A stretch of DNA of 64,000 bases, taken from positions 122,835-186,834 of the forward strand of contig VMFP01000001.1 of assembly GCA_007376145.1 (NCBI GenBank), in the 5' to 3' direction. A program made the translations under genes and the position numbers. Of the stretch, positions 5,750-25,546 are shown piece after piece. Source of the DNA: Parcubacteria group bacterium Gr01-1014_38. GTDB taxonomy: Bacteria > Patescibacteriota > Andersenbacteria > UBA10190 > CAIZMI01. Under the pieces are notes generated by a model, which did no database searches, had not been told where the DNA came from, and was given only the letters and a program-made list of their open reading frames with translations. Numbering within the stretch: the stretch's first letter is position 1; each line of letters opens with the position of its first letter.

Positions 5750-5961
5750 CACTTCGCCCTCGGCCCGGCTCGGGCTTCGCGTGTCAGGCCATGCCGCTTC
5801 ATCTCGGGGGCCTTCGAGTACTTCCCGCGAAGTGTGCCCCGCGAAGCGAAGTAGCGAAGTGGGGCACCCTATGCTATGCTTGTGGATAAGGGGATCTCAG
5901 CTTTCAGCAGGATTTTCCGGACGTCCTCCACTCGTACCAGCACAAAACACCACATCGTGAC

Positions 5962-6597: not shown

Positions 6598-6619
6598 TTC
6601 TTAACACACCAAACGACAC

Positions 6620-6994
6620 ATGAAGAAACGCGCTTTTCTGCTCTTGGTGGGCATCGCCGCAGCTTTCGTGGTGGTCGCGAGCATCGCCGCCGTGACCCTC
6701 GCACAGACGCCGCCCTACGCGGTCAAGATCCGCGTGGTGGATAAAATCGAGTCGGCGAAGATCTTCGAGGGATTTGTGCTCGAACAGACCCGAGGGAAGA
6801 CCTCGATTCTCGGGGATCAGATAAACTTCCGGGTCCTGAGCACGACCACCGCGTTTACGAAGGGAAGCAAGGGGCGGTCAACCAAAGACTGGCTCAGCGG
6901 TCTCAAGAACGAGGACGTTGTGACGGCCACCGGGTGGTATCGGTCGTCCGACAAGACATTCGAGCTGGCGAAGGTCGTCAATCGCTCACGGTAG
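6620..6994 (+). CDS. hypothetical secreted protein (124 aa), paralog-like to 5962..6597
   Basis: Signal-peptide-like MKKRAFLLLVGIAAAFVVVASIAAVTLAQT; similar N-terminus and beta-strand pattern to upstream ORF. Confidence 0.55.
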   Translation: MKKRAFLLLVGIAAAFVVVASIAAVTLAQTPPYAVKIRVVDKIESAKIFEGFVLEQTRGKTSILGDQINFRVLSTTTAFTKGSKGRSTKDWLSGLKNEDVVTATGWYRSSDKTFELAKVVNRSR

Positions 6995-7083
6995 TCGGAG
7001 CCTCTCAAACGCGGGCGCGCCAAACCGACCGGGCAATGCCCGGCGGGGCGTTGCGCCCGTCCGGCAGGTAGGCGAGACGCCTC

Positions 7084-8178
7084 TTATCTCCGCAGTGTTC
7101 CGGCTTCCACAAACCGGCGGAGAAGTTCTTCTTGTTCGCGATTCACTCGCTTGGGGACGTCAATCACGGTCGTGATGACGTGATCGCCTCGTTTCCCCGT
7201 CTCTCCGCGTCTCCCGATCACGATGCCGCGTCCACGCAAGCGGAATTCCGATCCCGACGGCGTGCCTCGAGGGATCTCCAGGGTCGTTTTCCCATCGAGC
7301 GTCTCTACTTCGACGGTTCCTCCTAAGACTGCGGTGGTGAACGGCACGGCAATGGTTGAGCGGACGTCCTGTTCGTCTCGGGAGAAGGCGGGATGCCGCT
7401 TCACGCGCACGGTCACATACAAGTCTCCCGCTGGTCCCCTGCGCGGCCCGACTTCTCCCTCACCGGTGATGCGGATGCGTGTGCCGTCATCGAGCCCCGC
7501 CGGAATTTTCACGCGCAGCGTCTCGCGCTGATGGGCACGGCCGGTCCCACTGCACGCCGAGCAAAGCGTCTGCGGTCGCTTCCCTTCCCCACCGCAGTCG
7601 GGACACACCGACCGGTGCAGCATGGCGCCGAAGAACGTTCGGACCTGGCGCTCGACAACACCGGAGCCGGCACAGGTTGCGCAGGTGGCAATGGGCGTGC
7701 CGGGTTTCGCTCCGCTCCCCCCGCAGGTGGGGCACGTGCGGAGACGCTCAAGGATCAGGTCGCGCGTCGTCCCGCGTGCCATCTCTTCGAACGAGATTGT
7801 CACGTCGGTTGCACGGTCATCGCCACGCTCCGCCACGCGCGTTCGGCGACGCCCAAAGGCGCCGCCGAAGAGATCTCCGAAGAGGTCCTCGAACCCCGTA
7901 AATTCCCGCTGGAACACCTCGAACGGGTCGAAGCCGAAGCCCTGTGCGCCGCCGGGAGACCCGCCACTCTCGAACGTAGCCCCAAACCGGTCGTACTGCG
8001 CGCGTTTCTCCGAGTCGCCGAGAACCTGGTACGCCTCGTTGATTTCCTTGAATTTCTCTTCGTTCCCCGTCGGCTTGTCGGGGTGATACTGAAGTGCGAG
8101 TTTCCGGTAGGCACGCTTCACCTCGTCCGCGGAAGCGGAGCGTTCAACGCCGAGGGTGTGGTAGTAGTCTTTGGGCAT
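7084..8178 (-). CDS. dnaJ: chaperone DnaJ
   Basis: J-domain YYHTLGV...[15 protein letters not shown] region, four CxxCxGxG zinc-finger repeats ([32 protein letters not shown]). Confidence 0.9.
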
Positions 8179-8195
8179 CGGGCTTTTGAGTTCTG

Positions 8196-8456
8196 TTACC
8201 GCTCGTACACGTCTTTGCGGTGCCCAATCGTGGCGAATAACGCGGTATCGGTTTCCGTGAAGAGGAAGAGCACGCGATAGACCTGCGTCACCCGGAAGGA
8301 GAACGTCAACGACTCCCCGTGGAGTTTCTTGACGTGGAGTCGTGGGTCACGCCAGTTCTTCCGAAAGATCCCTTCCTGCCTGCGGTACAGGACCTGAATG
8401 TCTCGTGGGAGTTTCCGGAACTGTTTAGAAAATTCGTCAGTGTAGAGAATCTTCAT
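8196..8456 (-). CDS. RelE/ParE-family type II toxin (86 aa)
   Basis: [21 protein letters not shown]...[12 protein letters not shown] resembles RelE/ParE/YoeB toxins including C-terminal HRKDVY; 4-nt overlap with upstream antitoxin-like ORF. Confidence 0.7.
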
Positions 8457-8686
8457 ACGCGCCGGCGGACACGCCCTGCACGCCAGTCACGGACTGCACG
8501 ACGCAGGGAGGCGCGGAGCCGCGCGGCATCTTTGTAGTCATTGAACGATTCCTCTGGGATCTCCGAGCTTAGCTCCTCGAAGACTCGCCGGGAGAGCTCC
8601 GAGAGGGAAAATCCATAGCGAAGCGCCAAGCGAGCGAGACGATCTTTCGTCTGCTTCGGGAGGTCAATCGTGAGTCTAGTGCTCAT
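8453..8686 (-). CDS. ribbon-helix-helix (CopG-like) antitoxin candidate (77 aa)
   Basis: Internal ATG at 8686: MSTRLTIDLPKQTKDRLARLALRYGFSLSELSRRV...; RHH-like beta strand plus two helices. Stop overlaps toxin start (ATGA arrangement). Confidence 0.6.
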   Translation of the reverse strand: MSTRLTIDLPKQTKDRLARLALRYGFSLSELSRRVFEELSSEIPEESFNDYKDAARLRASLRRAVRDWRAGRVRRRV

Positions 8687-8909
8687 TGGAGAGGAGTGTA
8701 CCTTGGCTAAACATTCGGAGTCAAAGAGCGCGAGCTTCCGGAGCCGGAAGGCGAAGTGGGGCCTGCACCGCGAAGTCCCGCCGCAGGCGGGACGAAGTGG
8801 GGTACGCGCGCTTGATATCGTCGGAAGGGGCACCTCTTGACACCCCAAGGACAGAATAGTAATCTTGAGATGGCATTGGTTCCTTCTTTTAAAGAGGTGA
8901 GGTGCGCTG

Positions 8910-9200
8910 ATGTTGAATCAGGAGGGTATGTCGGAGGTTGGCTCACACATCCAGAAGGCTGTTGGTCTACGGCTCCGCATTAGGCAGCTTTCCTCTCAAG
9001 AATTTGCGGAGTTCCATGATTTGATTCGGCGCATGAGCGTTGATGACCTCTGGCAATTCGTACTTCTTGTGGAGAAGTACTCAGGTGGGCCGCCTCCCGA
9101 GAGCGAGCTCGAAGCAATGAGGACCAGGGTGTGGGAAAAGCTTCGGCAACACCTAATCCAGAGTCGGCTCGAGCGCAGCGAAGAATCAGAGACTTTGTAG
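8910..9200 (+). CDS. small hypothetical protein (96 aa), lower GC than surroundings
   Basis: ORF MLNQEGMSEVGSHIQKAVGLRLRIRQLSSQEFAEFHDLIRRMS...; local GC ~52% versus ~63% flanks; opposite strand to the chaperone operon. Confidence 0.35.
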   Translation: MLNQEGMSEVGSHIQKAVGLRLRIRQLSSQEFAEFHDLIRRMSVDDLWQFVLLVEKYSGGPPPESELEAMRTRVWEKLRQHLIQSRLERSEESETL

Positions 9201-9236
9201 TTCCTGCTATTCGTGACCCAGAAGGGATCATCTGGG

Positions 9237-11108
9237 TCACTTTTTCTCTGCCTCTCCCTCGACGGTCTTTCCGCCAGCGGGTTCTTGAACTGGCTGTTGC
9301 GCAGCCTGCTGCTGATACATCGCAGCTCCGATCTTCATGACCGTCTGGTTTAGGTCTTCGATGGCTTTCTTGAGCGCGGGGGTGTCTTCGCCTTTCTGCG
9401 AGGACTGCACAGCCTCGAGCTTTCCTTCAATCTCCTTCTTCACGTCGGCCGGCACTTTGTCGCCCATTTCCCGGAGAGTCTTTTCCGTCTGGTACACCAT
9501 CGCTTCCGCTTGATTACGGGTTTCGATCGCTTCCTTCTTCTTCTGGTCTTCCTCCGCATGCGCGGCCGCATCCCGCGTCAGACGCTCGACTTCGTCCTTC
9601 GAAAGGCCGGAAGACCCTTGGACGGTAATTTTCTGCTCCCGGCTCGTGGCCTTGTCCTTTGCGGAGACGGTCAGGATCCCGTTCGCGTCAATGTCAAAGG
9701 AGACCTCGATCTGGGGGACGCCGCGCGGCGCGGGCGGAATGCCGTCGAGGATGAATCGCCCCAGACTCTTGTTATCGGCAGCCATCTCGCGCTCTCCCTG
9801 GAGGACGTTGATTTCCACCTGCGGCTGGCTGTCGGACGCCGTCGAGAAGACTTGTGACTTCCGCGTCGGCACCGTCGTGTTCTTCGCAATGAGCGGGGTG
9901 CGAACGCTCCCGAGCGTTTCGAGGCCCAGCGTGAGTGGTGTCACGTCGAGGAGGAGGACGTCCTTCACGTCGCCCTGGAGAATCCCGCCCTGGATCGCGG
10001 CGCCGACCGCGACGACTTCATCCGGGTTTACGTCCTTATGCGCCTTTTTTCCAAACAAGCCTTCGACGGCCTCGATCACCTTCGGCATGCGGATTTGGCC
10101 GCCGACGAGGACCACTTCGTCGATATCCTTCGGCTCCAGTTTGGCTTCCGCCAGTGCTTCTTTCGTGAGCGCGATGGTGCGGTCCACGTATTCGCCGACG
10201 AGCTCTTCGAGCTTCGCGCGGGTGAGCTTTAGGAGGAGGTGCTTCGGGCCGGAGGCATCGGTGGTGATGAATGGCTGGTTGATCTCCGTTTCCGACACTG
10301 TGGAGAGCTCGATCTTCGCCTTCTCCGCGGCTTCCTTGAGGCGCTGGAGCGCGATGGGATCCTTGCTCAAGTCGATGCCGTACTGCTTCAGGAACTCACC
10401 TGTCATCCAGTCAATAATCTTCTGGTCAAAGTCGTCTCCGCCGAGGTGCGTATCCCCGTGCGTGGCTTTCACTTCGATGGTTTCCGGAGCGACCTCCAGG
10501 ATGGAGAGGTCGAACGTTCCGCCGCCCAGGTCGTATACGACGATCCGTTCTTCTTTCTTCTTCTCGAGCCCATAGGCCAAGGCAGCCGCCGTCGGTTCGT
10601 TCAGGATGCGGCGGACGTTGAACCCGGCAATCGTGCCGGCATCTTTCGTCGCCTTACGCTGGGAGTCGTCGAAGTACGCGGGGACGGTGATGACGGCATC
10701 GGTGATGTTCTCGCCAAGTTTCTCCTCTGCATCGGCCTTGAGCTTCTGCAAGACCATGGCGGAGATTTCCGCCGGCTTATACCACTGGTCCCCCATATTC
10801 ACCTCGACGCCGCCCTCCGCACTCTCGCGGATATCAAACGGCAGGAGGTCTTGGTCGCGCTGGATTTCGGGGTCGGAGAACCGCCGGCCGATGAGTCGCT
10901 TAATGGAGTAAAGTGTGTGTTCGGGGTTCGTCACCGCTTGGCGTTTCGCCGTAATGCCGACGTGACGATCGCCGGTCTTCGCGATTGCAACGACGGACGG
11001 AGTTGTCCGCGCTCCCTCGCGATTTTCGAGAACGCGCGGCTTGCCACCTTCGATGATGGCCATACAGGAGTTCGTCGTTCCGAGGTCGATTCCAAGAATC
11101 TTGGGCAT
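9237..11108 (-). CDS. dnaK: chaperone DnaK (Hsp70)
   Basis: [37 protein letters not shown] and C-terminal substrate-binding/lid regions; 623 aa. Confidence 0.95.
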
Positions 11109-11158: not shown

Positions 11159-11671
11159 TCACGTCTCAGAACTCTTTGAAACCTTTACGCGCGCTGCCCG
11201 CAAGACCTGACCATTCCGCAGATACCCGGCCGCAAGCACTTCCGTAATCGTGCCAGCGGAAAGATGGGATGGCTCTTCCGCGACTGCCTCGTGAAGCTTC
11301 GGATCGAACGGCGACCCGACCTCACCAGTGGCAGTCACTCCGGCCTCTTGGAGGAACGAACGAAAGGCTTGGTAGATCTGGACGATACCCGTGGTCCACG
11401 GATGGGATTTGAGTTCCTCCGGGGTGTGGCGCATTGCTGCCTCAAAGTAGTCCAGAAGAGAAATCAAGTCCTTGAGGACGCTATCTTGCGCTGCATCGGA
11501 GGCATGTGCAAGACGGTCTTCCAGATCCTTCCGCAGGTTCTCGTAGTCCGCGAGTGCCCGCTGCCAGCCGGCAAGATGCTCGGAGGCGGCAGCTTCTGCC
11601 GCTGCCAGTCGGGGATCCGTGTTCGTTCGGTGGACGGTTCCCGCTGGGAGACCGCGGAGCGGAGCCGGCAT
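11159..11671 (-). CDS. grpE: nucleotide exchange factor GrpE
   Basis: RALADYENLRKD coiled-coil and C-terminal beta domain typical of GrpE; its start shares one nucleotide with the hrcA stop (TGATG). Confidence 0.85.
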   Translation of the reverse strand: MPAPLRGLPAGTVHRTNTDPRLAAAEAAASEHLAGWQRALADYENLRKDLEDRLAHASDAAQDSVLKDLISLLDYFEAAMRHTPEELKSHPWTTGIVQIYQAFRSFLQEAGVTATGEVGSPFDPKLHEAVAEEPSHLSAGTITEVLAAGYLRNGQVLRAARVKVSKSSET

Positions 11672-12387
11672 CAGAGAGACCGGAGGGTATGGACTGCGCG
11701 GAGAATCCGCATGTTTCTCGTGTACGGCATGCGGAGGGGCCCGATGAGTGCCGCAAGCAGCTGGAGTCCGGTGGGCAGCATCGGCGCTGTCACGAGCATG
11801 CTGACATGCTCCGCCCGTGCGACTGGATTCTCTCCATCGATAAAGACGGTCGGTTGCCCATCGGCCACGTGGGCCATCAATGTCTCACTGTGTTCCTCGA
11901 ATGCCTGGAGGACACGCTCCAGATCGTGGGCCGTCTCCCCGTCGGTGAGTTCACGCATGCGGAAGAGATTGGCCAACCCGGCTGGCTCCCGGACCACTGC
12001 CTCCGGAAGTATCGCCACCACCGCCAACGTCCCCGAGAGACGCGCGAGCAGCTGCGCCAGTTCGCGGGCGAGTGCGGCTTCCTGACTCGGATCAACGGCC
12101 GGTGCGAACCGGCGAAGCGCGGCAACGGCGGCTGGCGACGGAGCGCGGGCTCCCGCGTGATCCACGTAGTAGCGATACCCCAAGCGCGTTGGGACGCGTC
12201 CAGAAGACCGATGCGGATGTTCCAGAAACCCTTCGTCTTCGAGTTGAGCAAATTCGGCGCGGACGGTCGCGGAACTCCAGGGAAGGCGTACCCGTTCCAG
12301 CAGAGCTTCTGACCCAACCGGAATCCCCGTCCGGATGTACTCCCGAACGGCGGTGCAGAGAAGCGTGGATTGTCGGTCCGTGAGCAT
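11671..12387 (-). CDS. hrcA: heat-inducible transcription repressor HrcA
   Basis: MLTDRQSTLLCTAVREYIRTGIPVGSEALL...SSGRVPTRLGYRYYVDH matches the HrcA N-terminal wHTH and conserved region. Start set to ATG at 12387; the longer ORF-track N-terminus would translate the CIRCE element. Confidence 0.85.
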   Translation of the reverse strand: MLTDRQSTLLCTAVREYIRTGIPVGSEALLERVRLPWSSATVRAEFAQLEDEGFLEHPHRSSGRVPTRLGYRYYVDHAGARAPSPAAVAALRRFAPAVDPSQEAALARELAQLLARLSGTLAVVAILPEAVVREPAGLANLFRMRELTDGETAHDLERVLQAFEEHSETLMAHVADGQPTVFIDGENPVARAEHVSMLVTAPMLPTGLQLLAALIGPLRMPYTRNMRILRAVHTLRSL

Positions 12388-12388
12388 G

Positions 12389-12415
12389 TTTAGCACTCTC
12401 GCGCTTTGAGTGCTA
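12389..12415. promoter_or_regulatory. CIRCE operator (HrcA binding site) TTAGCACTC-N9-GAGTGCTAA
   Basis: Perfect consensus inverted repeat ttagcactc tcgcgcttt gagtgctaa immediately upstream of hrcA. Confidence 0.9.
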
Positions 12416-12417
12416 AA

Positions 12418-12447
12418 AGTATGCGCCCCCGCTCTTGCCGTTGTCAA
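12418..12447 (-). promoter_or_regulatory. sigma-A type promoter candidate for hrcA operon (TTGACA -N18- CATACT) preceding CIRCE
   Basis: Minus-strand reading: TTGACA acggcaagagcgggggcg CATACT tttagcactc; the classic promoter-then-CIRCE layout. Confidence 0.45.
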
Positions 12448-12475
12448 GGGTTGTTTGCTACGGTGAAGGGCTTCC

Positions 12476-13027
12476 ATGAATCAAACACGTCTCACAATCA
12501 TCCTCTCCGGCCTTGCGATCGTCGTGGTCGCAGCCGCTGCCGGGTACGGACTCGGAATGCTGGCGGAAAAGCGGGTCGCTCCAGAAGCGCCGCGCACCCC
12601 GGAAGCTACCGCATTGCCGTCTCCCAGTCCTTCCCTTCCCTTACCCAGTCTGACTCCGACCGCGTCGCCCCTCCCCGCTTCTCCGCGGGTTCCCGCCGCC
12701 GCCCCCACCGGGCCGGACCAAGGACCCCCAGAGCCGGTATTCCGCGTGGTGATCGAACCCTTCCCCACGGTCGTGCGGGCCGGAACCCCGCTGCGTGTCC
12801 GCTGGCAGATTCACGGACCCGCCGGGCTCCAAGGCGCCGCCACGAGACTCGTCGTGGTTCCGGAACAAGGGTCACCGGTGGTCAGTGCAGTCGCGCCCTC
12901 CGCTCTCTTCCCCGCGCGCTTCGAGGCGACGGTGACGGCCCCGGATCGCGGTCGCATGCTGCTCGTCGCCGAAGCCACGGCAAATGGTCAAACGGTGCAC
13001 GCCAAGCAGCGCGTCGTGGTTGAATAA
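12476..13027 (+). CDS. hypothetical membrane-anchored Pro-rich protein (183 aa)
   Basis: N-terminal TM LTIILSGLAIVVVAAAAGYGLGML, Pro/Ser-rich linker, beta-rich C-terminal domain; divergent from hrcA. Confidence 0.5.
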   Translation: MNQTRLTIILSGLAIVVVAAAAGYGLGMLAEKRVAPEAPRTPEATALPSPSPSLPLPSLTPTASPLPASPRVPAAAPTGPDQGPPEPVFRVVIEPFPTVVRAGTPLRVRWQIHGPAGLQGAATRLVVVPEQGSPVVSAVAPSALFPARFEATVTAPDRGRMLLVAEATANGQTVHAKQRVVVE

Positions 13028-13153
13028 GTAACCCCCACAACGCGTAAGCGGCACGAGGGCGCTCCTCGCTTTCCTCGCTCGCCCCACCATGATGGACCCT
13101 CTGCGGTGGACGTGCCGGTGACTGGCATGGTAGTGTGATCGCGCGTCCACCGT

Positions 13154-14452
13154 ATGGGGTCCATCACACGCTCAATGCAGACGCCGCCAATACAGCCGGT
13201 CCCTCCACAGGAAGGAGGAGGAAAGAAGAAAAATCTTTTGATGCTCGTGGTTGTGGCCACGATGGTGGGGGTGGCTTCTGTGTTGTTTCTTCTCACCATT
13301 CGCATACAACAAGGGGATGGAGGACTTCCGGAGAGAACTTCCGAGGAAGTTGGGCAGCCATCAACGATGATGCCGCAGTCTCAAGTAATCCCCCCGCAGG
13401 CGACCGGACAGAGGACAAGAGTTATCTACGCAACGTACGAGGACCCAAACGTGAATATTTACTCTGCCCTGCCAGACGGCTCTGACCGGAAGATCGTAGT
13501 TTCCGAAAAGCCGCCGGCGTTCCAGTCCGGTCTCGAGGCCATGCTCCGGTTGAGGGTTTCGCCACGACGCGATCTCCTTGCCTACGCACTCTATCCCAGA
13601 GACACCATTTCAATTGTCAACACTACTGGTGAGCGCCTCCGTACCGTACGCGGCGATTTCCAGTCCTTTGGGTGGTCGCCTGATGGGGAAAACTTTCTGT
13701 ATAATCTACAGCTTCCGTCGTCTTCATCGGATACGGGGGGCGTATCTCTGCAAGGGCCTGCTCGAGAATGGTATCTTCTCAATGCGGGAACCGGAGAGGA
13801 AAGTCTCCTTGCTTCACGCGATGTTCACCGCGACGAGCTTATCGCATGGGCGGAACGCGAAAAAGTTTTGTTCGCCGATCACGTCCTGGGAAGTAAAAGC
13901 TATTACCTCTTTGACGTGAACAAGAAAGAATCATCTCCGCTGCCCAATGTTGAACAGTGGATGGACATGAGGAAAGTTTCTGTAAGCCCATCAGGTAGAC
14001 GGCGAGTACTATTTGCAGTACCCAGTCCCATCGGTCGTAGCGGCGGGTTGTGTGAATTTCTTGAGTTTGGAGAGGAATGGCAGTTCAAGCAACTCCTGTT
14101 TTCAGAGAGGTGCCAGTCGGGGAGCCTCTACGGCGATCTCGGGTGGAACGGAGACGACGAGTTGTTTTATACGGAAGCAACGACGGAGCCACCACAGGGG
14201 TTAAGTCTTGTCAACGACTCGATCAATAAATATGATTTTCGGACGAGACAGCGAAAGCCAGTTCTCTCGCGTGCAGGACGAGAAAGGTATCAGCTAGCGG
14301 GAGTGCTGGAAGGACAAGGGCTCCTCGTTTTGAAGAGGGTCATCGGGAACCCGGAGTACGTATTAGAGGTTCGCAGTTTTGATGGTCGTGAGCCCGTGAC
14401 TATTCATTCGAGTAATCAGGAGGGTATGATTGTTGATTGGGTGCGAGAATAG
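13154..14452 (+). CDS. membrane-anchored TolB-like beta-propeller protein (432 aa), lower GC
   Basis: TM LLMLVVVATMVGVASVLFLL then repeated WSPDG / VSPSG propeller-blade motifs; local GC ~50%. Confidence 0.6.
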   Translation: MGSITRSMQTPPIQPVPPQEGGGKKKNLLMLVVVATMVGVASVLFLLTIRIQQGDGGLPERTSEEVGQPSTMMPQSQVIPPQATGQRTRVIYATYEDPNVNIYSALPDGSDRKIVVSEKPPAFQSGLEAMLRLRVSPRRDLLAYALYPRDTISIVNTTGERLRTVRGDFQSFGWSPDGENFLYNLQLPSSSSDTGGVSLQGPAREWYLLNAGTGEESLLASRDVHRDELIAWAEREKVLFADHVLGSKSYYLFDVNKKESSPLPNVEQWMDMRKVSVSPSGRRRVLFAVPSPIGRSGGLCEFLEFGEEWQFKQLLFSERCQSGSLYGDLGWNGDDELFYTEATTEPPQGLSLVNDSINKYDFRTRQRKPVLSRAGRERYQLAGVLEGQGLLVLKRVIGNPEYVLEVRSFDGREPVTIHSSNQEGMIVDWVRE

Positions 14453-18489: not shown

Positions 18490-19616
18490 CTCATCCCCCA
18501 TGTCAAGGAAATGTATTGTGCCACCACATTTTGCACTGCTCCGGGTACTTTTCCCCAAGGAACTGAACCGGTGATTTGAGCCCGAGGGCGTGGTGCGGCC
18601 GCTCGGTGTTGTGCCAGAGGAGATGCTCGACGAGCCGGACGTTGAACCGTCGAACGTCAAGGAGGAGTCCCGCGTGATAGTTCACGAACTCCTCCTGAAG
18701 GGTGCGGTTGAACCGCTCGTCGTGCGGGTTCATGCGCGGGCACTGCGGGTACGTCTTCCAGTGGGTGAGGTGCTGGTTCCGGACCTCGGCGGCAAAGCGC
18801 TTCTTGAACTCACTCCCGTTATCGGAGAGGACGTAGACCCAGGGAACCGGGAAGACCCGACGGACAAGGCGGAAGAACTCCGCCGCAGCCTGGGAGGCAT
18901 GACTCCGTGTCGCCCACGCGAAGGAGAACCGGGAGTGCGTATCGGTGAACGTGAGGAGGTACCGCCGCGTCCCGTGGAGGAACCGTTCAATGGTATCAAG
19001 GGTCACGAGATGGCCGGGATAGTCCGCGTGGAAGCCCTTCGGCTTCCGGAGGACATGTTCTCGCTTCCTCGGAACGATCCGCCCGTCGTGCCGGACCTTC
19101 TCCGGGAACAGGCGGAGGCCGCCGAGGTCGTGAATGAGACGAGCGACCGTGCGCGCAGAGGGAACGGAGAGCCTCCGTGCGATGCAGAACGGTCGGAGGA
19201 GCACGGCACACTTCGCGGGGCCGAGGTTCGGGTGTTCCTCACGGAGACGCCGGATCTCCGCGAGGACCTCCGGGGGCCACTCCGCGGTTCTCCGCCGGAG
19301 CGTGTGCGGCTTCGTACTCTTCGGGTTCAGGGCTTCCGGCATCCCACCACCCTCACGGAGCTGCTGCTTCCAGAGGAAAAGGGTTCTCCGAGACACACGG
19401 AAGGCCTCCTGGGTGGCCGCGAGGCCGTGCCGCTCCCAGAAGGCGAGGATGCGGGCGCGGTCTGTCGCTGAGCGGGTGATCATATGGGACCAGCGGAGCG
19501 CATAGTCCGACAGGCGCACAAACCCCCGGACACCGTACGAGAGACGGAGCACCCGCATCAGCGCTTCCGTGAACCACGCTCCAGGGAGTGCAAAATGTTT
19601 CTGGCACTATGCAGGA
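18490..19616. mobile_element. IS481-family insertion sequence (~1.1 kb) with ~30-bp imperfect terminal inverted repeats
   Basis: Single DDE transposase ORF flanked by IRs: left tgtattGTGCCAccACATTTTGCACTgctccggg (18512-18545, overlapping transposase 3' end) and right (revcomp of 19581-19615) cctgcataGTGCCAgaaACATTTTGCACTccctgg. Confidence 0.75.
18503..19558 (-). CDS. IS481-family DDE transposase (rve integrase core)
   Basis: N-terminal HTH, then HLVTLDT (D), VLSDNGSEF (D), ERFNRTLQEEF (E) and ERPHHALGLKSP: typical rve-domain IS481 transposase, 351 aa. Confidence 0.85.
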   Translation of the reverse strand: MRVLRLSYGVRGFVRLSDYALRWSHMITRSATDRARILAFWERHGLAATQEAFRVSRRTLFLWKQQLREGGGMPEALNPKSTKPHTLRRRTAEWPPEVLAEIRRLREEHPNLGPAKCAVLLRPFCIARRLSVPSARTVARLIHDLGGLRLFPEKVRHDGRIVPRKREHVLRKPKGFHADYPGHLVTLDTIERFLHGTRRYLLTFTDTHSRFSFAWATRSHASQAAAEFFRLVRRVFPVPWVYVLSDNGSEFKKRFAAEVRNQHLTHWKTYPQCPRMNPHDERFNRTLQEEFVNYHAGLLLDVRRFNVRLVEHLLWHNTERPHHALGLKSPVQFLGEKYPEQCKMWWHNTFP

Positions 19617-20648: not shown

Positions 20649-22157
20649 ATGGTCTTGCACCTCTCGAATACGTTGACGAAAACGAAAGCAGAGATCACGC
20701 CAAGCAATCCCGACGGGATTCTGCGTCTGTACCACTGCGGGCCGACGGTGTACGGCACGCCGCACTTGGGAAACATCCGGCGATTCTTGGTCGCGGATCT
20801 CCTCGTACGGACCGCGCGGTTTCTCGGATACCGCGTGCGGAGCGTGATGAACATTACGGATGTCGGGCATCTCTTGGACGCTGACCACAATGCTGCGGGC
20901 ACTGACCGCATGCTCGTTGCCGCCCAGCGAGAGGGGAAAACGCCGCAGCAGATTGCGGCAAAGTACACAGCGGAGTTTTTCGAAGCACTCGCCGCAATAC
21001 GCGCGGAACCCGCGGACTACTACCCCCGCGCAACGATGCACATTCCGCAGATGCAGGCGATCATCCAACGCTTGATCGAGAAAGGATTGGCGTATGAGAC
21101 AAGCTCTGGCGTGTACTTCGATGTCACGAAGTGGCCGAGCTACGGGAAGCTCTCCGGGAATACGCTCGACGCTATCCGTGCCGGTGCGCGGGTGGATGTC
21201 CGCGAGGAGAAACATCATCCCGCGGACTTCGCACTCTGGGTCAAAGCGCCCAAAGAGCATCTCATGCAGTGGGACTCTCCGTGGGGCCGTGGCTATCCCG
21301 GTTGGCACATTGAATGTTCTGCGATGAGCATGCAGCTCCTCGGAGAGACCATTGATGTGCACACCGGCGGTAAAGACAATGTCTTTCCGCACCACGAGAA
21401 TGAAATCGCCCAAAGCGAAGGAGCGACGGGAATCCCCTTCGTCCACACCTGGCTCCATAACGAATTCCTCGAGCTGCAGGACCCTTCGACGGGCTCTGGG
21501 CAAGAGGAGAAGATGTCTAAGAGTGAGGGAGACATTCTGACCATCAACGATGTAAAAGCTCGCGGCTATGATCCGCTCGCTTTTCGGCTGCTCTGTCTCC
21601 AAACGCATTACCGCTCGAAACTCCACTTCTCGTGGGAGAGCATGGATGCGGCGGCATCTGCGCTGAAGAGTCTCCGTGATTTTGTCCGGAGGCTGGGAGA
21701 AGTGCGGGATGCGGCAACGGACAACAGGCAGCCGGTAGCAGGGAACGGACTTGCGGCGTTGGAGCAGCGATTTACCGACGCGCTGGCTGACGATCTGGGC
21801 TCCCCGCAAGCACTTGCGGCGGTGTTTGACTTTCTTCGTGAAGTGAATCCAAAACTCCAGTCAGGCGAGTTGGGCGCGGATGACGCAGAGGCGATTCGCG
21901 TGACGTTCCGGAAGCTCGATACCGTGCTCGCGCTCCTGGATGTGGACGTGCCACTTCCCTCCCCCGACGTTCCCGCCGAGGTTCAAAAACTTGTGGCCGA
22001 TCGCGAAGACGCCCGCCGCCGCCGGGATTTCGCTGCCGCCGATCGTCTCCGGAGCGACATCCGCGCTCATGGCTATACTGTCGATGACACGCCTCAAGGT
22101 CCGCGCGTTACGCAAAGTTCTACTGCTGGCGGAAATCGTACAGCGCGGACTTCTTGA
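20649..22157 (+). CDS. cysS: cysteine--tRNA ligase
   Basis: HIGH motif CGPTVYGTPHLGN, Zn-binding HIECS, KMSKS motif KMSKSEGD; 502 aa. Confidence 0.9.
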   Translation: MVLHLSNTLTKTKAEITPSNPDGILRLYHCGPTVYGTPHLGNIRRFLVADLLVRTARFLGYRVRSVMNITDVGHLLDADHNAAGTDRMLVAAQREGKTPQQIAAKYTAEFFEALAAIRAEPADYYPRATMHIPQMQAIIQRLIEKGLAYETSSGVYFDVTKWPSYGKLSGNTLDAIRAGARVDVREEKHHPADFALWVKAPKEHLMQWDSPWGRGYPGWHIECSAMSMQLLGETIDVHTGGKDNVFPHHENEIAQSEGATGIPFVHTWLHNEFLELQDPSTGSGQEEKMSKSEGDILTINDVKARGYDPLAFRLLCLQTHYRSKLHFSWESMDAAASALKSLRDFVRRLGEVRDAATDNRQPVAGNGLAALEQRFTDALADDLGSPQALAAVFDFLREVNPKLQSGELGADDAEAIRVTFRKLDTVLALLDVDVPLPSPDVPAEVQKLVADREDARRRRDFAAADRLRSDIRAHGYTVDDTPQGPRVTQSSTAGGNRTARTS

Positions 22158-22188
22158 CACGTGCCCGGCGCCCATGATAATTTCGTTT
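22154..22188 (+). promoter_or_regulatory. near-consensus sigma70 promoter (TTGACA-N17-TGATAAT) upstream of the low-GC island
   Basis: ttgacacgtgcccggcgcccatgataat: -35 TTGACA, 17-nt spacer, extended -10 TGaTAAT; ~70 nt upstream of the FGE-like gene, which has a GGAGGA RBS. Confidence 0.45.
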
Positions 22189-22258
22189 GCTGCTTCGTGT
22201 TGCTACTTCAGGGAAGTAGCGGGTGTCCTTTCACAATCTGAATCTGGAGGAACAAGCG

Positions 22259-23173
22259 ATGAGAAGATCCTTTCTAGAAAAGCTTGCTCGGTATTCCGAC
22301 GATTACTCTGCGGAGTGCCTCGTTCCCACCGGCAGCTTTTCGCAAGGCTGCTCAGTGGCCGATCACCGAAAAATGTGTGAGGAGTTTGATTACCACGTGT
22401 ATCCTCTTTCTTGGTTTGATGATGAGACTCCACAGCGACGGGTGTTCCTCTCCGCCTACTACATTGATCGCTACCCCATTACTAACGCGCAGTTTGCCCT
22501 TTTCGTTCTTGAGACTGGTTACGAGACAGTGGCTGAACAGTCGGAAGGTGGACTGGTGTTCACTCGGCGCGGGTGGGAGTGGGTAAGAGGTGCGTGCTGG
22601 TACAGACCGACGGGTCCGCGAAGTTCCGTCGGCAGGCGTCAGTATCACCCCGTTTGTCAGATTTCTTGGCGTGACGCTCATTCCTACGCCGCTTGGAGAA
22701 GTAAAAGGCTTCCAACGGAGTCTGAATGGGAAAAGGCCTGCCGAGGCACTGATGGAAGAAGATGGCCGTGGTCTAATGAGTGGAAACCAGGTGTTTGTGG
22801 CTCAGTAGAATATCACGCAAAAGCCAACTTTAACACTCGAGAGGAGTGGCGCAACTGGTGGGAATCAGTCTATCGGCCCCACCTTACTTTCACCAAGCCG
22901 GTTGGATCTTACCCTAGGTCAGTGTCTGTGTATGGCATCCACGACATGGTGGGCTGTTTGTACCAATGGGTAGAAGACTGGTATGGCCCCTACAGCAGGA
23001 AAGCTACGTATAGAGGAGAATACGGTTACTTTCTAGGAAGAAACACGCTGAAGGTTGTGCGTGGCGGATGCTGGATGAATTTTAAGTTCCAAGTCAGAAC
23101 GTGTGAACGCATGGCGTCAGCCCCGCTTGTCTCTACATTCGTGCACGGTTTCCGATGCGCTCGCACCGCGTAG
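22259..23173 (+). CDS. formylglycine-generating-enzyme (FGE/SUMF1/EgtB-C)-family protein
   Basis: YYIDRYPITNAQFALFV, GWEW, RGGCWMN and FRCA motifs of the FGE-sulfatase fold; start set to ATG 22259 preceded by GGAGGA (ORF-track start 22223 is a GTG). Local GC ~48%. Confidence 0.75.
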   Translation: MRRSFLEKLARYSDDYSAECLVPTGSFSQGCSVADHRKMCEEFDYHVYPLSWFDDETPQRRVFLSAYYIDRYPITNAQFALFVLETGYETVAEQSEGGLVFTRRGWEWVRGACWYRPTGPRSSVGRRQYHPVCQISWRDAHSYAAWRSKRLPTESEWEKACRGTDGRRWPWSNEWKPGVCGSVEYHAKANFNTREEWRNWWESVYRPHLTFTKPVGSYPRSVSVYGIHDMVGCLYQWVEDWYGPYSRKATYRGEYGYFLGRNTLKVVRGGCWMNFKFQVRTCERMASAPLVSTFVHGFRCARTA

Positions 23174-23257
23174 GACGGTTTGTGTTCGGTTTTACCGAGT
23201 CTCAGATTTATACACAATCGAGTCAGAAATCAGGCTGAGTCTTGGTGGCTCGGCGTA

Positions 23258-24034
23258 ATGACAAAGAAAGAGAGGCATCCTATGGACAGACCTAATGTAG
23301 GACTCGTTGTTACAGGTGGAAGTACCGGTATCGGTCGCAGCATTGCTCTCGAATATGCTGCAGCCTATCCAAAGTCGAGCGTTGTCCTTGTTGCACGGGA
23401 GAAAGGTAGGCTCACAAAGGTTAAAGGAGAGATTGAGAGGCGCGGATCAAGGTGTATTGTATATGCAGGCGACCTGCGTGACCCAGCATTCATTCAGGGT
23501 TTCATTAGGGACATAAGGCTTCGAGGTCTCTCGATAACCCATCTGGTGAATAATGTGGGGTCGTCGCGCGAAGGCTCAGGAATTCTGAGCGTCACCGGGG
23601 AGGAGTGGTACGCTTCACTTCAGCTGAACCTAAACGCCGCATTTTTCTGCGCTAAAGGCGTGGTCGAACTGATGCTAAGCAAGGGTTGGGAGGGGGCGAT
23701 TGTGAATGTAAGCGCAATTGCTGCCCGTATCGGAATGCCTAAAGTTGCATTCACAACAGCGAAAGCTGGGCTGATTGGAATGACACGGTCACTCGCTCGT
23801 GTATTAGCCGCTCATGGAATTCGAGTGAACGCAGTTCTCCCTGGAGCTATCGATACTCCCGCAACTCGACATTGGACAGAAAGACAACGCAAGGACATCT
23901 GCCGGAAGATTCCTCTCGCCCGCATCGGCAAGCCCGAGGAAGTGGCTTCGGTCGTGGTATTCCTGCTTTCAGAGAAAGCCTCGTACGTTACCGGCCAGAC
24001 CATTGACGTTAATGGTGGCTGGCACATGAAATGA
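23258..24034 (+). CDS. short-chain dehydrogenase/reductase (SDR) family protein; catalytic Tyr position occupied by Phe
   Basis: TGGSTGIGRSIA Rossmann motif, NNVG, and AFTTAKAGLIG where canonical SDRs have YxxxK (e.g. NYAAAKAG). Alternative start at 23282 (MDRPNVGLVVTGG). Confidence 0.75.
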   Translation: MTKKERHPMDRPNVGLVVTGGSTGIGRSIALEYAAAYPKSSVVLVAREKGRLTKVKGEIERRGSRCIVYAGDLRDPAFIQGFIRDIRLRGLSITHLVNNVGSSREGSGILSVTGEEWYASLQLNLNAAFFCAKGVVELMLSKGWEGAIVNVSAIAARIGMPKVAFTTAKAGLIGMTRSLARVLAAHGIRVNAVLPGAIDTPATRHWTERQRKDICRKIPLARIGKPEEVASVVVFLLSEKASYVTGQTIDVNGGWHMK

Positions 24035-24267
24035 GGTTACTGATTATTCCGAGCGTATTCACGCGGTGGGTACGCTCTTTTCTGTGTCTGTACAAAGATG
24101 GATGATGTGGAATATGCTTTCGTGGCTTCGAAGAGATTCTGAGGCAACGGACCTAGTACCGCTTTCGTATCAGTAGTGCAAAAAAGTGCTTGAAAGACAG
24201 ATTCGTGACCTTTCACTGAAGCTTATGATTCAATGCCAACCACGAGATTCAAAAAGTCAACCAAGTA

Positions 24268-24765
24268 ATGTTTATCGTCTCTATGGGGAATAACGCGTTG
24301 GTAGAGTGTACAACTCTCTACGGGGATCGGAAGTTAGTGAAAGCAAGTGCACTGACGTTCCGCCCAGCGGCTTACGCACTTGTTTTGCGTGAAGGCAAGT
24401 TGTTGCTCGTAAATACGCGGAGTACAGGAAAGTGGTTCTTCCCGGGCGGCGCAATCGAGCGGGGGGAGACGATGAGAGATGGTATCCTGCGAGAGGTCCG
24501 GGAGGAAACCGGAGTCGAAATTGAAGTCAGGGAATTGTTTCAGTGTAAAGAGAGCTTTTTTTACTATGATCCTTGGGACGCCGCATACCATAGTTTCTCC
24601 TTCTTCTACACCGCCGTTCCAAAGACCTTTGAATTGACGGAAGCGTATAACGCAGAGGATAAGGAGGCGAAAAGTCCCGCGTGGGTAGACGTGAAACAAC
24701 TTAAAGCAAGCGATTTCCAGTTACTCGCGGGAGAAATATTTGAGGCATTCATTCGCACAACATAA
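24268..24765 (+). CDS. NUDIX hydrolase
   Basis: Nudix box GGAIERGETMRDGILREVREETGV (GX5EX7REUXEEXGU); 165 aa; AT-rich upstream intergenic region. Confidence 0.75.
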   Translation: MFIVSMGNNALVECTTLYGDRKLVKASALTFRPAAYALVLREGKLLLVNTRSTGKWFFPGGAIERGETMRDGILREVREETGVEIEVRELFQCKESFFYYDPWDAAYHSFSFFYTAVPKTFELTEAYNAEDKEAKSPAWVDVKQLKASDFQLLAGEIFEAFIRTT

Positions 24766-24826
24766 AATCTGTGGGGGTATGTCTCGGAAGTGGACGCACG
24801 TTTTACCGTCGCGTTTCGTTTTTCAC

Positions 24827-25546
24827 TCAATCGGTGGGCGTCACGTGACTTTCCGGCGGATACTTTTGCGCCCACAGTTGAAGCCAGGTGGCTTGTCTCG
24901 CGTTTACCCCGCCGCGGAACGCGCGGGATTCCTGAATGGCAAGGTCCATCGGCCATCCTTGTACGGCGTACCGGTAGAGCGCGGTCATGGTCCCCGTGCG
25001 GCCGATGCCGCCACGGCAGTGGATGTGGACCGGCTGGTTCTCCGGATTCGTGACAAACCACAGGAACTGCTCGGCTTGATCTTCGGTCGGCGGCTGTCCG
25101 TCTGTGAGCGGGATGTGGAGATACGTCAGCCCGAGATTGGTAAAGCCTTGGAGTTTCGCATCGTCGCCAATTTCTCCGCGTTCCCCATCCGTTCGGAGAT
25201 TGACGACCGATTTCCACCCACGCTCTTTCAGCCAGGTAAACTCTGAAACGAGAGGCTGGCCGGAGCGCGAGAATACCCCCGACACCGGTATAGCAAAGGA
25301 CCAGAATCCGTAGGCCGACGGCGCATCGTCCGGAATCTGTTCACGCGGTCCGACGAAGGAGACTCGCTCGGCGACTGGCGCCGCCGAAGATCCGGGGCTG
25401 ACCAACGATGCGGCTGGCGTGGATAACGCCTCTGGCGCGTTTCCCCCGGTGCGCATCCGCCATCCGGGGAGGCGCACCAGGGCAACGACACCCGTGACGA
25501 ACGCGAGGAGGGTGACCACCGCGATGCTCAAGCGCAGCGGCCTCAT
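24827..25546 (-). CDS. secreted/membrane-anchored dual-specificity (tyrosine) protein phosphatase
   Basis: N-terminal TM/signal, then VHIHCRGGIGRTGT = HCxxGxxRT(G) PTP/DUSP active-site loop. Confidence 0.7.
   Translation of the reverse strand: MRPLRLSIAVVTLLAFVTGVVALVRLPGWRMRTGGNAPEALSTPAASLVSPGSSAAPVAERVSFVGPREQIPDDAPSAYGFWSFAIPVSGVFSRSGQPLVSEFTWLKERGWKSVVNLRTDGERGEIGDDAKLQGFTNLGLTYLHIPLTDGQPPTEDQAEQFLWFVTNPENQPVHIHCRGGIGRTGTMTALYRYAVQGWPMDLAIQESRAFRGGVNARQATWLQLWAQKYPPESHVTPTD

What the first reader, a model, noticed from the sequence alone, without database searches (positions are those of the whole stretch)
22154..24780. Low-GC three-gene island (FGE/SUMF1-like, SDR with Tyr-to-Phe active-site change, NUDIX) after cysS
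GC drops from ~64% to ~45-50% across 22.2-24.8 kb, with AT-rich intergenic spacers, and recovers sharply at 24.79 kb. That is a compositional signature of horizontal acquisition. The island begins with a near-consensus extended -10 promoter and a GGAGGA RBS. The SDR has AFTTAKAG where the catalytic YxxxK Tyr is expected, suggesting an inactive or non-canonical reductase. An FGE-fold oxygenase-like enzyme plus a NUDIX hydrolase suggests a small-molecule or nucleotide-sugar modification module of unknown function.
Basis: partly seen in the sequence, partly recalled or inferred. Interest (0 to 1): 0.5.

Follow-up and report, generated by a model that had tools for sequence, protein, structure and literature searches.

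The report
Acquired three-gene island after cysS
A 2.7-kb low-GC block of three genes was inserted between two conserved genes of a Parcubacteria genome; it looks like a fragment of a rare, uncharacterised gene cluster, and its reductase has lost two catalytic residues, so it is a real but fairly ordinary case of gene transfer.

Summary
Window 22154-24780 has 50.8% GC against 61.7% elsewhere, and it is the strongest GC and tetranucleotide outlier of the 64 kb. The gene calls (FGE-fold, SDR, NUDIX) are correct.

Horizontal acquisition is now shown by synteny. Two close relatives (CysS 75-77% identical) and two outgroups (57-64%) keep the surrounding gene order, and none has these genes next to cysS. 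In the close relatives cysS is followed within about 46-70 bp by the convergent phosphatase gene.

The FGE-fold protein belongs to the uncharacterised CalU17 family (42.6% identity to PDB 7ML6). It lacks the copper-binding cysteine pair of true FGE.

Only two close homologues turned up among about 15 billion proteins. Both are translationally coupled to a CapF/FdtA-like cupin that is absent here. One is followed by an SDR ortholog (54%) with an intact catalytic Ser and Tyr.

It is otherwise well conserved, so it is probably catalytically dead.

The NUDIX gene is a separate transcription unit behind a strong terminator. There is no sign that the three genes form a conserved trio. Function remains inferred: nucleotide-sugar or sulfur chemistry.

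The parts
20649..22157 (+). cysS (cysteinyl-tRNA synthetase), the left flank. Homology to relatives ends at about 22112-22121 ('GPRVT'). The last 15 codons (22113-22157, 51% GC) are a tail not shared with relatives.
   Evidence: Pfam tRNA-synt_1e E 8.8e-91; tblastn against L086/L087; alignment of C-termini.
22113..24826 (.). Inserted island, about 2.7 kb, between the end of cysS homology and the stop codon of the convergent phosphatase gene.
   Evidence: Empty site in L086, L087, L248 and L250. Outlier in GC, GC3 and tetranucleotide composition.
22154..22181 (+). Sigma-70-like promoter candidate, TTGACA-16-GATAAT. The -35 box overlaps the cysS stop codon.
   Evidence: Matches 11 of 12 positions. 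This is a consensus match only, not evidence of function.
22259..23173 (+). CalU17-like FGE-fold protein, 304 aa. GGAGGA RBS at 22246-22251. It lacks the FGE catalytic Cys pair.
   Evidence: PF03781 E 2.4e-53. PDB CalU17 7ML6 E 2.6e-62, 42.6% identity. Family motif GG(S/C)WMNF(R/K)(Y/F)QVR. Closest homologues P0122 at 60% and P0123 at 54%.
23258..24034 (+). FabG-like classical SDR. The annotated start is 23258; the start at 23282 has the better RBS. TGGSTGIG, Asn116 and Lys161 are kept. Catalytic Ser is replaced by Ala145 (GCA) and catalytic Tyr by Phe157 (TTC). Residue numbers count from the start at 23282.
   Evidence: Pfam. MAFFT alignment with 119 FabG-like hits, L001 SDR and E. coli FabG. 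HMMER alignments to 3OSU and 3LYL. The ortholog in L001 (54% identity) has Ser and Tyr.
24051..24087 (+). Intrinsic-terminator-like hairpin (12 bp stem) followed by a T-run, 17 nt after the SDR stop codon.
   Evidence: Terminator scan. RNA fold -19.0 kcal/mol, z = -3.63, 0 of 200 shuffles as stable.
24035..24267 (.). AT-rich spacer (43.8% GC). No ORF and no detectable gene remnant.
   Evidence: No Rfam match.
24268..24765 (+). NUDIX hydrolase, 165 aa, with an intact NUDIX box. It belongs to an uncharacterised subfamily of about 155-165 aa proteins. It is probably its own transcription unit.
   Evidence: PF00293 E 9.4e-21. Nearest cluster representative is 50% identical; 32 representatives at E<1e-30. 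Conserved columns are kept.
24827..25546 (-). PTP/DSP-type phosphatase gene, the right flank, convergent with cysS in the close relatives.
   Evidence: Pfam PTP-NADK E 2.9e-23. 64-66% identical to the L086/L087 orthologs.

Best explanation
The region is a horizontally acquired insertion of about 2.7 kb (window about 22113-24826). It landed in, or just after, the 3' end of cysS, between cysS and a convergent phosphatase gene, in a high-GC Parcubacteria genome (MAG Gr01-1014_38).

It holds two transcription units:
1. A promoter-like site, a CalU17-family FGE-fold gene, a FabG-like SDR gene and a strong terminator.
2. A separate NUDIX hydrolase gene.

Shown:
- The insertion itself.
- The family assignments.
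- The absence of the FGE copper-cysteine pair.
- The loss of the catalytic Ser and Tyr in the SDR.
- The FGE-SDR pair recurs in one other contig, where the SDR is intact.
- A CapF/FdtA-like cupin is translationally coupled to the FGE gene in both other members of the clade and is missing here.

Inferred:
- The island is a truncated piece of a larger cupin, CalU17-like, reductase cluster.
- In that cluster the FGE-fold protein acts on a nucleotide-activated keto-sugar or a sulfur-bearing intermediate, and a reductase acts alongside it on a step I cannot specify.
- In this genome the reductase no longer catalyses hydride transfer. It is either a cofactor-binding pseudoenzyme or a gene at the start of decay, so the original pathway is probably not complete here.
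- The NUDIX gene is a neighbour of uncertain functional link.
For: Insertion:
- Synteny across window 12.5-31 kb is conserved with L086 and L087 (CysS 77% and 75%). There cysS is followed within about 46-70 bp by the phosphatase gene.
- Outgroups L248 and L250 have cysS followed by dnaB.
- GC is 50.8% against 61.7%, GC3 is 0.49-0.55 against 0.67-0.81, and tetranucleotide distance is 5.3 SD above the mean.
- The CysS tail diverges after GPRVT.
- Three contigs carry the same arrangement.

FGE-fold protein:
- CalU17 E 2.6e-62, 42.6% identity.
- No Cys at the FGE C336/C341 positions across the clade.

Cluster context:
- L001 has cupin, FGE (60%), SDR (54%, with Ser and Tyr), cupin and a methyltransferase.
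- L002 has cupin, FGE (54%) and a non-orthologous NUDIX.
- L001 and L002 also share a class I/II aminotransferase.
- Five loci (L003-L007) holding more distant relatives (39-45% identical), several of them actinobacterial, all pair the gene with ThiS. Most also have a Zn-ADH, an NDP-sugar epimerase/dehydratase-type SDR and a cysteine desulfurase.

SDR:
- A145 and F157 sit at the FabG S138 and Y151 positions in MAFFT and in two HMMER pairwise alignments.
- There is no overall rate acceleration against the L001 ortholog: 10 versus 17 unique changes.

Transcription units:
- Promoter-like site matching 11 of 12 positions, and a terminator with z = -3.63.
Against: - No mobility gene, tRNA or flanking direct repeat marks the island, so the insertion mechanism is unknown.
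- Only two close homologues exist, so 'the cupin is a conserved partner' and 'the island is truncated' rest on n = 2. A cupin could lie elsewhere in the genome, outside the 64-kb window.
- All three ORFs are intact. The FGE and NUDIX proteins keep all family-conserved residues. The SDR shows no general decay. This fits a functional, rewired module as well as it fits a remnant.
- The biochemical function rests only on gene neighbourhoods. CalU17 has no published function that I could find.
- Two of three clade members have some NUDIX gene next to the FGE gene, which may hint at a real link that I count as unproven.
Confidence: 0.6

Rival explanations
1. The island is a functional, self-sufficient module. 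The CalU17-like enzyme is the catalyst. The Ser/Tyr-less SDR serves as a nucleotide- or cofactor-binding, non-redox partner (scaffold, sensor or carrier). The NUDIX enzyme hydrolyses the nucleotide-linked product or by-product.
For: - All three ORFs are intact, with an RBS, a promoter-like site and a terminator.
- The SDR keeps the Rossmann motif, Asn and Lys, and shows no general acceleration.
- Ser-to-Ala and Tyr-to-Phe are conservative, structure-preserving changes.
- Inactive SDR subunits with structural roles are documented: BbsC in BbsCD, and PhBS-beta (PMC13418739).
- A different NUDIX gene also follows the FGE gene in L002.
Against: - The documented inactive SDR subunits cited here (BbsCD, PhBS) pair with an active SDR paralog, and none is present in the window.
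- The cupin coupled to the FGE gene in both other clade members is missing.
- The NUDIX gene sits behind a strong terminator and has no ortholog in the other clusters.
- There is one sequence only, so selection on A145 and F157 cannot be assessed.
Confidence: 0.25
2. The low-GC block is ancestral to this lineage and owes its composition to functional or expression constraints. The relatives lost it.
For: No mobility genes, att-like repeats or tRNA lie at the borders. A related FGE cluster occurs in L002, whose backbone composition resembles this lineage (tetranucleotide r 0.90-0.95).
Against: - Four of four syntenic relatives, including two outgroups, lack it at this site.
- GC3, which is largely free of protein constraint, is 15-25 points lower than in the flanks.
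- The L002 copy is at another locus and is less similar to ours (54%) than the copy in the unrelated low-GC contig L001 (60%).
Confidence: 0.04
3. The block is an assembly or binning chimera: foreign reads joined into the contig.
For: The genome is a metagenome-assembled genome. The composition shift is abrupt.
Against: - Both flanks return to conserved synteny, so two precise false joins would be needed.
- The same protein and neighbourhood are on three contigs of different length classes from different assembly sources.
- The cysS reading frame continues through the left junction to a stop codon.
Confidence: 0.04
4. The block is an anti-phage defence or stress island in which NUDIX depletes a nucleotide and the FGE-fold protein and SDR act as accessory proteins.
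For: The NUDIX gives a weak hit to the PADLOC candidate PDC-S07, E 2.6e-12. The genes are small, variable and horizontally moving.
Against: - The FGE-like protein and the SDR have no PADLOC hit.
- The NUDIX hit is at the level of generic NUDIX similarity.
- Viral contigs hold only FGE relatives of 31% identity or less.
- The homologues sit among biosynthetic-type neighbours: cupin, aminotransferase, methyltransferase, ThiS.
Confidence: 0.05

Closest known systems
CalU17 (Micromonospora echinospora calicheamicin cluster; PDB 7ML6, 7MSY, 6VQP)
   Same: Full-length similarity: E 2.6e-62, 42.6% identity over 277 positions. It shares the N-terminal WFxDEtPQ motif and the GGSWMNF(R/K)(Y/F)QVR motif that replaces the FGE cysteine pair.
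   Different: The closest non-CPR relatives of our protein (39-45% identical; loci L003-L007), which share this motif with CalU17, sit with ThiS, a Zn-ADH, an NDP-sugar epimerase/dehydratase-type SDR and a cysteine desulfurase. The genomic context of CalU17 itself was not examined. None of these partners is in our window. Here the host is a CPR bacterium and the partner is a classical SDR. CalU17 itself has no published function that I could find.
Formylglycine-generating enzyme (SUMF1/FGE)
   Same: Same fold and Pfam family PF03781. HPV, RLPTExEWE and GFRCA motifs are present. E about 1e-30 to human and bacterial FGE structures.
   Different: The two copper-binding catalytic cysteines (human C336 and C341) are absent across the clade. 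In our protein a lineage-specific Cys271 is pulled onto C336 in one pairwise alignment, but every relative has Ser there. No link to sulfatase substrates was looked for.
EgtB / OvoA / SenA sulfoxide and selenoxide synthases
   Same: The C-terminal FGE-like domain is homologous: TIGR03440 E 7.6e-25 over model positions 191-413. This superfamily handles thiol and selenol substrates.
   Different: There is no N-terminal DinB-like iron-binding domain. Scores are far below the family cut-offs (87.9 against 360 bits).
FabG (3-oxoacyl-ACP reductase) and other classical SDRs
   Same: 37-46% identity to many FabG-annotated proteins. TGxxxGxG, NNxG, Asn, Lys and the PG motif are kept.
   Different: The catalytic Ser and Tyr are replaced (A145, F157). 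The loop between the Ser and Tyr positions is one residue shorter, a feature shared with the L001 ortholog. Scores fall below the NCBIfam FabG cut-offs: 210.6 against 222, and 196.9 against 297.75.
Inactive SDR subunits of heterotetrameric SDRs (BbsC of BbsCD; PhBS-beta of petunia benzaldehyde synthase)
   Same: These are SDR-fold proteins that lost catalytic-tetrad residues but keep the fold and serve structural roles (PMC13418739).
   Different: Those proteins work with an active SDR paralog encoded alongside. No second SDR is present in the island or the window.
CapF/WbjC C-terminal cupin and FdtA/WxcM-like NDP-hexulose isomerase/epimerase cupins (partners in the homologous clusters)
   Same: The cupins coupled to the FGE gene in L001 and L002 match PF14667 and PF05523. 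This points to nucleotide-keto-sugar chemistry for the parent cluster.
   Different: No such cupin gene or remnant is present in this window.

Membership tests
Formylglycine-generating enzyme (FGE/SUMF1) | FGE-sulfatase fold (PF03781) above the gathering score | tested here: met
   181.9 bits against a cut-off of 23.3, E 2.4e-53.
Formylglycine-generating enzyme (FGE/SUMF1) | Pair of copper-binding catalytic cysteines (human C336 and C341) in the GGSYMCxxxxC segment | tested here: not met
   The clade motif is GG(S/C)WMNF(R/K)(Y/F)QVR, with Asn and Val/Gln at those positions. The lone Cys271 is unique to this sequence.
Formylglycine-generating enzyme (FGE/SUMF1) | Sulfatase substrate genes with a CxPxR motif in the genome or neighbourhood | not tested
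   No sulfatase search was run. The neighbours in the window are cysS, an SDR, a NUDIX and a phosphatase.
CalU17-like FGE-fold clade | Full-length sequence similarity to CalU17 with the shared clade motifs | tested here: met
   E 2.6e-62, 42.6% identity, residues 22-303 against 25-305. There are 51 invariant columns with nine relatives.
CalU17-like FGE-fold clade | Adjacent ThiS-type sulfur carrier, as in the more distant relatives L003-L007 | tested here: not met
   No ThiS, Zn-ADH, extended SDR or cysteine desulfurase homologue is in the window. This is a context feature of one subclade, not a proven family requirement.
EgtB/OvoA sulfoxide synthases | N-terminal DinB-like iron-binding domain plus the FGE-like domain; equivalog score | tested here: not met
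   Only model positions 191-413 match, at 87.9 bits against a cut-off of 360. The protein is 304 aa.
Classical SDR / FabG | Rossmann TGxxxGxG cofactor motif and the SDR fold | tested here: met
   TGGSTGIG is present. adh_short_C2 scores 175 bits and adh_short 136 bits.
Classical SDR / FabG | Catalytic tetrad Asn-Ser-Tyr-Lys | tested here: not met
   Asn116 and Lys161 are present. Ser is replaced by Ala145 and Tyr by Phe157 in MAFFT and HMMER alignments. The L001 ortholog has Ser and Tyr.
Classical SDR / FabG | NCBIfam FabG equivalog or subfamily cut-off | tested here: not met
   NF009466 scores 210.6 against 222. TIGR01830 scores 196.9 against 297.75.
NUDIX hydrolase superfamily | NUDIX box GX5EX7REUXEEXGU and the Pfam score | tested here: met
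   GGAIERGETMRDGILREVREETGV is read directly from the sequence. PF00293 scores 74.7 bits against a cut-off of 21.1. Family-conserved columns are kept.
MutT (8-oxo-dGTPase) equivalog | Equivalog score cut-off | tested here: not met
   TIGR00586 scores 42.8 bits against 97.9. PDB hits are generic MutT/nudix proteins only.
Horizontally acquired genomic island | Atypical base, codon and oligonucleotide composition | tested here: met
Horizontally acquired genomic island | Absent from the syntenic site in related genomes | tested here: met
   L086, L087, L248 and L250.
Horizontally acquired genomic island | Mobility signatures: integrase or transposase inside, tRNA target, flanking direct repeats | tested here: not met
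   No tRNA lies within 16 kb. Only short, chance-level repeats were found. The nearest transposase, at 18503-19558, is separated from the island by two host genes.

The most novel reading that the evidence does not exclude
CalU17-family FGE-fold proteins, which lack the copper-cysteine pair, may be an unrecognised enzyme class. They would act on nucleotide-activated keto-sugars or thiocarboxylate-delivered sulfur, for example in thiosugar formation, together with a reductase. One version uses ThiS (seen mostly in actinomycetes), and another, cupin-coupled version circulates by horizontal transfer among CPR bacteria. The Ser/Tyr-less SDR would then be a natural substrate- or cofactor-binding pseudoenzyme retained for a non-redox role.
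Probability: 0.15. Interest if true: 0.6.

Novelty: new member of a known kind. Interest (0 to 1): 0.33.

Why it matters
This is a clean, well-bounded example of recent gene gain in a Candidate Phyla Radiation genome, where streamlined genomes and host dependence make acquired metabolic genes informative. The empty sites in relatives are defined almost to the codon.

It also shows that the structurally solved but functionally orphan CalU17 family has a second, cupin-linked gene context outside actinomycete natural-product clusters. That narrows hypotheses for the family towards nucleotide-sugar or sulfur chemistry with a coupled reductase.

The naturally occurring Ser-to-Ala plus Tyr-to-Phe SDR, alongside an intact ortholog 54% identical, is a ready-made pair for testing whether such proteins are pseudoenzymes.

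None of this overturns current understanding. The value is as a lead, not as a discovery.

Tried and rejected
- Flanking direct or inverted repeats and a tRNA target: nothing beyond chance.
- Remnants of the cupin, ThiS or other partner genes in the spacers or elsewhere in the window, by tblastn and six-frame reading: none.
- Rfam search of 21.5-25.5 kb: no match. The hairpin in the 5' UTR of the FGE gene is not more stable than shuffles, z = +0.40.
- Genome-collection scan with the FGE alignment. The best GTDB representatives were Micromonospora and Actinomadura at 39-41%. No CPR genome was among the 80 loci kept, and the window's own genome was not among them either.
- Viral contigs: only relatives of 31% identity or less, so no phage vehicle is evident.
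- JGI metagenome scan with the SDR. It was saturated by one generic peptide pattern, and nothing above 40% identity appeared.
- The word-indexed protein search for the SDR missed the 54% ortholog in L001, which was found only through the neighbourhood of the FGE homologue.
- Names for the nearest NUDIX relatives: all lie on short, unnamed metagenomic contigs.
- PADLOC defence models: no hit for the FGE-like protein or the SDR, and a generic-level hit for the NUDIX.
- Literature on CalU17, its PDB codes, or FGE-like genes in enediyne clusters: nothing relevant.
- Relative-rate test for decay of the SDR: not significant.
- dN/dS was not attempted because synonymous sites are saturated at 54-60% protein identity.

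Full report
**1. What is in the sequence**

The window comes from a 245.5-kb contig of the metagenome-assembled genome 'Parcubacteria group bacterium Gr01-1014_38'. The FGE-like protein, the SDR and CysS all have 100% hits to that genome.

After cysS (20649-22157, +) come three same-strand ORFs:
- an FGE-sulfatase-domain protein (22259-23173);
- a classical SDR (annotated start 23258, better RBS at 23282, end 24034);
- a NUDIX hydrolase (24268-24765).

A convergent PTP/DSP-type phosphatase gene follows (24827-25546, -).

GC content and other composition measures:
- GC of 22154-24780 is 50.8%, against 61.7% for the rest. This is the lowest 2.6-kb stretch of the window, 3.8 SD below the mean.
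- Third-position GC is 0.55, 0.49 and 0.55 for the three genes, against 0.67-0.81 for thirteen... more precisely for the ten neighbouring genes examined.
- The tetranucleotide distance from the window background is the largest in the window, 0.45 against a mean of 0.20 and SD of 0.047.

It is not an extended -10 in the strict sense. The GGAGGA RBS is present 7 nt upstream of the ATG.

**2. Is it an acquired island?**

I took the closest CysS relatives in the protein collection and fetched their contigs.

L086 (CysS 77% identical) and L087 (75%) share the gene order of window 12.5-31 kb: BNR-repeat protein, CorA, CDP-alcohol phosphatidyltransferase, Cu-oxidase_4, cysS, phosphatase, PQQ-like (L087 only), DnaB, RecR and L21. 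In both, cysS is followed within about 46-70 bp by the convergent phosphatase gene.

Two outgroups, L248 (64%) and L250 (57%), have cysS followed directly by dnaB. None of the four has an FGE, SDR or NUDIX gene there.

The borders are well defined. CysS homology stops after 'GPRVT' (window about 22112), after which our protein has a different, 6-residue-longer tail of 51% GC. Phosphatase homology resumes at 24845, with the stop codon at 24827.

No tRNA, integrase or meaningful flanking repeat marks the borders, so the insertion mechanism is unknown.

An assembly chimera is unlikely. Both flanks return to synteny, and the same protein with the same neighbours lies on three contigs of different length classes.

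**3. The FGE-fold protein**

The best solved relative is CalU17 of the calicheamicin cluster (7ML6, 6VQP): E 2.6e-62 and 42.6% identity over nearly the full length. Canonical FGEs score only about 1e-30.

In an alignment with nine relatives, the segment that carries the two copper-binding cysteines in FGE reads GG(S/C)WMNF(R/K)(Y/F)QVR. One HMMER pairwise alignment places our Cys271 on human C336, but that residue is Ser in every relative. The catalytic pair is absent from the clade, so the protein is not an FGE.

It is not an EgtB/OvoA-type enzyme either. There is no DinB domain, and the score is 87.9 bits against a cut-off of 360.

I found no paper on CalU17.

**4. Where else the genes occur**

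Only two proteins above 50% identity were found among about 15 billion: P0122 (60%) and P0123 (54%). The next hits are sequences of 45% identity or less, some from actinomycetes and others from unnamed metagenomic contigs.

L001 (P0122) is a 45%-GC contig of unrelated composition. Its order is cupin, FGE-like, SDR, cupin, SAM-methyltransferase. That SDR is 54% identical to ours. Every other SDR found is at most 46% identical, and at most 44% over most of its length.

L002 (P0123) has the order aminotransferase, cupin, FGE-like, NUDIX. Its NUDIX matches ours only around the NUDIX box, 42% over 71 residues, and is not an ortholog.

In both contigs the cupin matches PF14667 and PF05523, the CapF/WbjC C-terminal and FdtA/WxcM types that bind NDP-hexuloses. 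In both, the cupin gene overlaps the FGE start codon. L001 and L002 also share a class I/II aminotransferase.

Neither a cupin nor the aminotransferase, nor any remnant of them, is in our window.

In the more distant relatives L003-L007 (39-45% identical; three are from named actinomycetes) the FGE-like gene always sits beside ThiS. It usually also sits with a Zn-ADH, an NDP-sugar epimerase/dehydratase-type SDR and a cysteine desulfurase.

Across the family the recurrent theme is therefore an FGE-fold protein plus a reductase, among nucleotide-sugar or sulfur-transfer genes. That is guilt by association, not proof.

The L002 backbone correlates at r = 0.94-0.95 in tetranucleotide use with L086 and L087, and at 0.90 with our backbone. 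L002 also comes from the same sequencing run as L087. It is probably the same lineage carrying the cluster at a different locus, again as a low-GC patch. Its FGE copy is less similar to ours (54%) than the L001 copy is (60%). This fits repeated, independent acquisition.

**5. The SDR**

Against 119 FabG-like hits, E. coli FabG and the L001 ortholog, our protein keeps TGGSTGIG, Asn116, Lys161 and the PG motif. It has Phe157 at Tyr151 and Ala145 at Ser138.

Independent HMMER alignments to S. aureus and Francisella FabG structures give the same register: 'nvsAiaa' against 'nlsSvvg' and 'sigSvvg'. The upstream strand, from the conserved Gly to the Ser position, is ungapped, which fixes the Ser assignment.

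The L001 ortholog has Ser and Tyr. Both changes are single-nucleotide: GCA from TCA, and TTC from TAC.

Of the columns conserved in at least 90% of the family, our protein alone departs at four: G31K, A92V (in the NNAG motif), S145A and Y157F. Overall it has not evolved faster than its ortholog, with 10 against 17 unique changes (p = 0.25).

The protein therefore looks structurally maintained but catalytically disabled. From general SDR knowledge (my own background, not a tool result), substituting the catalytic Tyr with Phe or the catalytic Ser with Ala severely reduces or abolishes activity in the SDRs where it has been tested.

Inactive SDR subunits are known (BbsC, PhBS-beta; PMC13418739), but those examples work with an active paralog, which is absent here.

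**6. NUDIX and operon structure**

A 12-bp-stem hairpin with a T-run starts 17 nt after the SDR stop codon. Its z-score is -3.63, and 0 of 200 shuffles fold as stably. A 233-bp spacer of 44% GC without coding potential follows.

The NUDIX gene is thus probably a separate transcription unit. Its NUDIX box and all subfamily-conserved residues are intact. Its nearest relatives are 50% identical and lie on short, unnamed contigs. No specific function can be assigned.

**7. Verdict**

The feature is a real, recently acquired 2.7-kb insertion. It most likely represents a fragment of a rare cupin, CalU17-like, reductase cluster, with a reductase that has lost two catalytic residues, plus an adjacent NUDIX gene of uncertain linkage.

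The kind of thing, a small horizontally acquired island, is well known. The gene family is uncharacterised, but nothing here demands a new mechanism. Interest is modest.

Noticed in passing
window 18503-19558 (-): An rve-family (IS481-like) transposase with GC3 of 0.81 is absent from the syntenic position in L086 and L087. No terminal inverted repeats were found. It is a second, independent insertion 2.6 kb upstream of the island.
   Followed up: partly
window 17.4-20.6 kb compared with L086 4222-9960 and L087 4517-9861: The relatives carry an ~830-aa gene and a 261-aa gene (between Cu-oxidase_4 and cysS) that this window lacks. The outgroups L248 and L250 have cysS directly followed by dnaB, so the phosphatase and PQQ-like genes are themselves lineage-specific additions. 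The flanks of cysS are a hot spot of gene gain and loss in this clade.
   Followed up: partly
window 22113-22157: CysS ends in a 15-codon tail (QSSTAGGNRTARTS) unrelated to the 8-9 residue tails of the relatives. The insertion appears to have replaced the extreme 3' end of cysS, and the -35 box of the island's promoter-like site overlaps the new stop codon.
   Followed up: yes
window about 39900-42430: This is the second-strongest tetranucleotide outlier of the window (distance 0.33, about 2.8 SD; 54.5% GC at 40-41 kb). It overlaps a 625-aa ORF (40550-42427, -) with no Pfam match and may be another acquired gene.
   Followed up: no
window 13154-14452 (+): A 432-aa ORF with no Pfam match lies in a 55%-GC kilobase.
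   Followed up: no
L002 about 5700-10100 and 11466-13259: In this contig, whose backbone composition resembles the window's lineage, the cupin, FGE and NUDIX cluster lies in a 48-50% GC patch. Two further genes have 37-42% GC (one matches LPG_synthase_C). These are several compositionally foreign patches in a 56%-GC backbone.
   Followed up: partly
L003 7725-16888 (Streptomyces sp. NPDC056132): The ThiS, CalU17-like and NDP-sugar-epimerase trio lies directly beside phage tail genes (DUF6093, Phage_TTP_16, tape-measure protein). It is possibly cargo of a prophage.
   Followed up: no
L004 1141-12539: The CalU17-like, ThiS and Zn-ADH genes sit next to a 1770-aa KS-AT-DH-KR polyketide synthase, a cysteine desulfurase, a UDP-glucose dehydrogenase-type gene and an epimerase. 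This natural-product context is reminiscent of enediyne clusters with modified sugars.
   Followed up: no
L001 10503-11723 and 13993-14918: A ThiF-like protein matches the N-terminal half of the Rv1355c family model (E 1.2e-94), and a separate nitroreductase-fold gene lies nearby. Together they look like a split version of that fusion protein, a few kb from the cupin, FGE and SDR cluster.
   Followed up: no
one search compared: The word-indexed protein search did not return the 54%-identical SDR ortholog of L001, although it listed 37-46% FabG hits. Close relatives of very large families can be missed when only the 8000 top word-sharing candidates are scored.
   Followed up: yes
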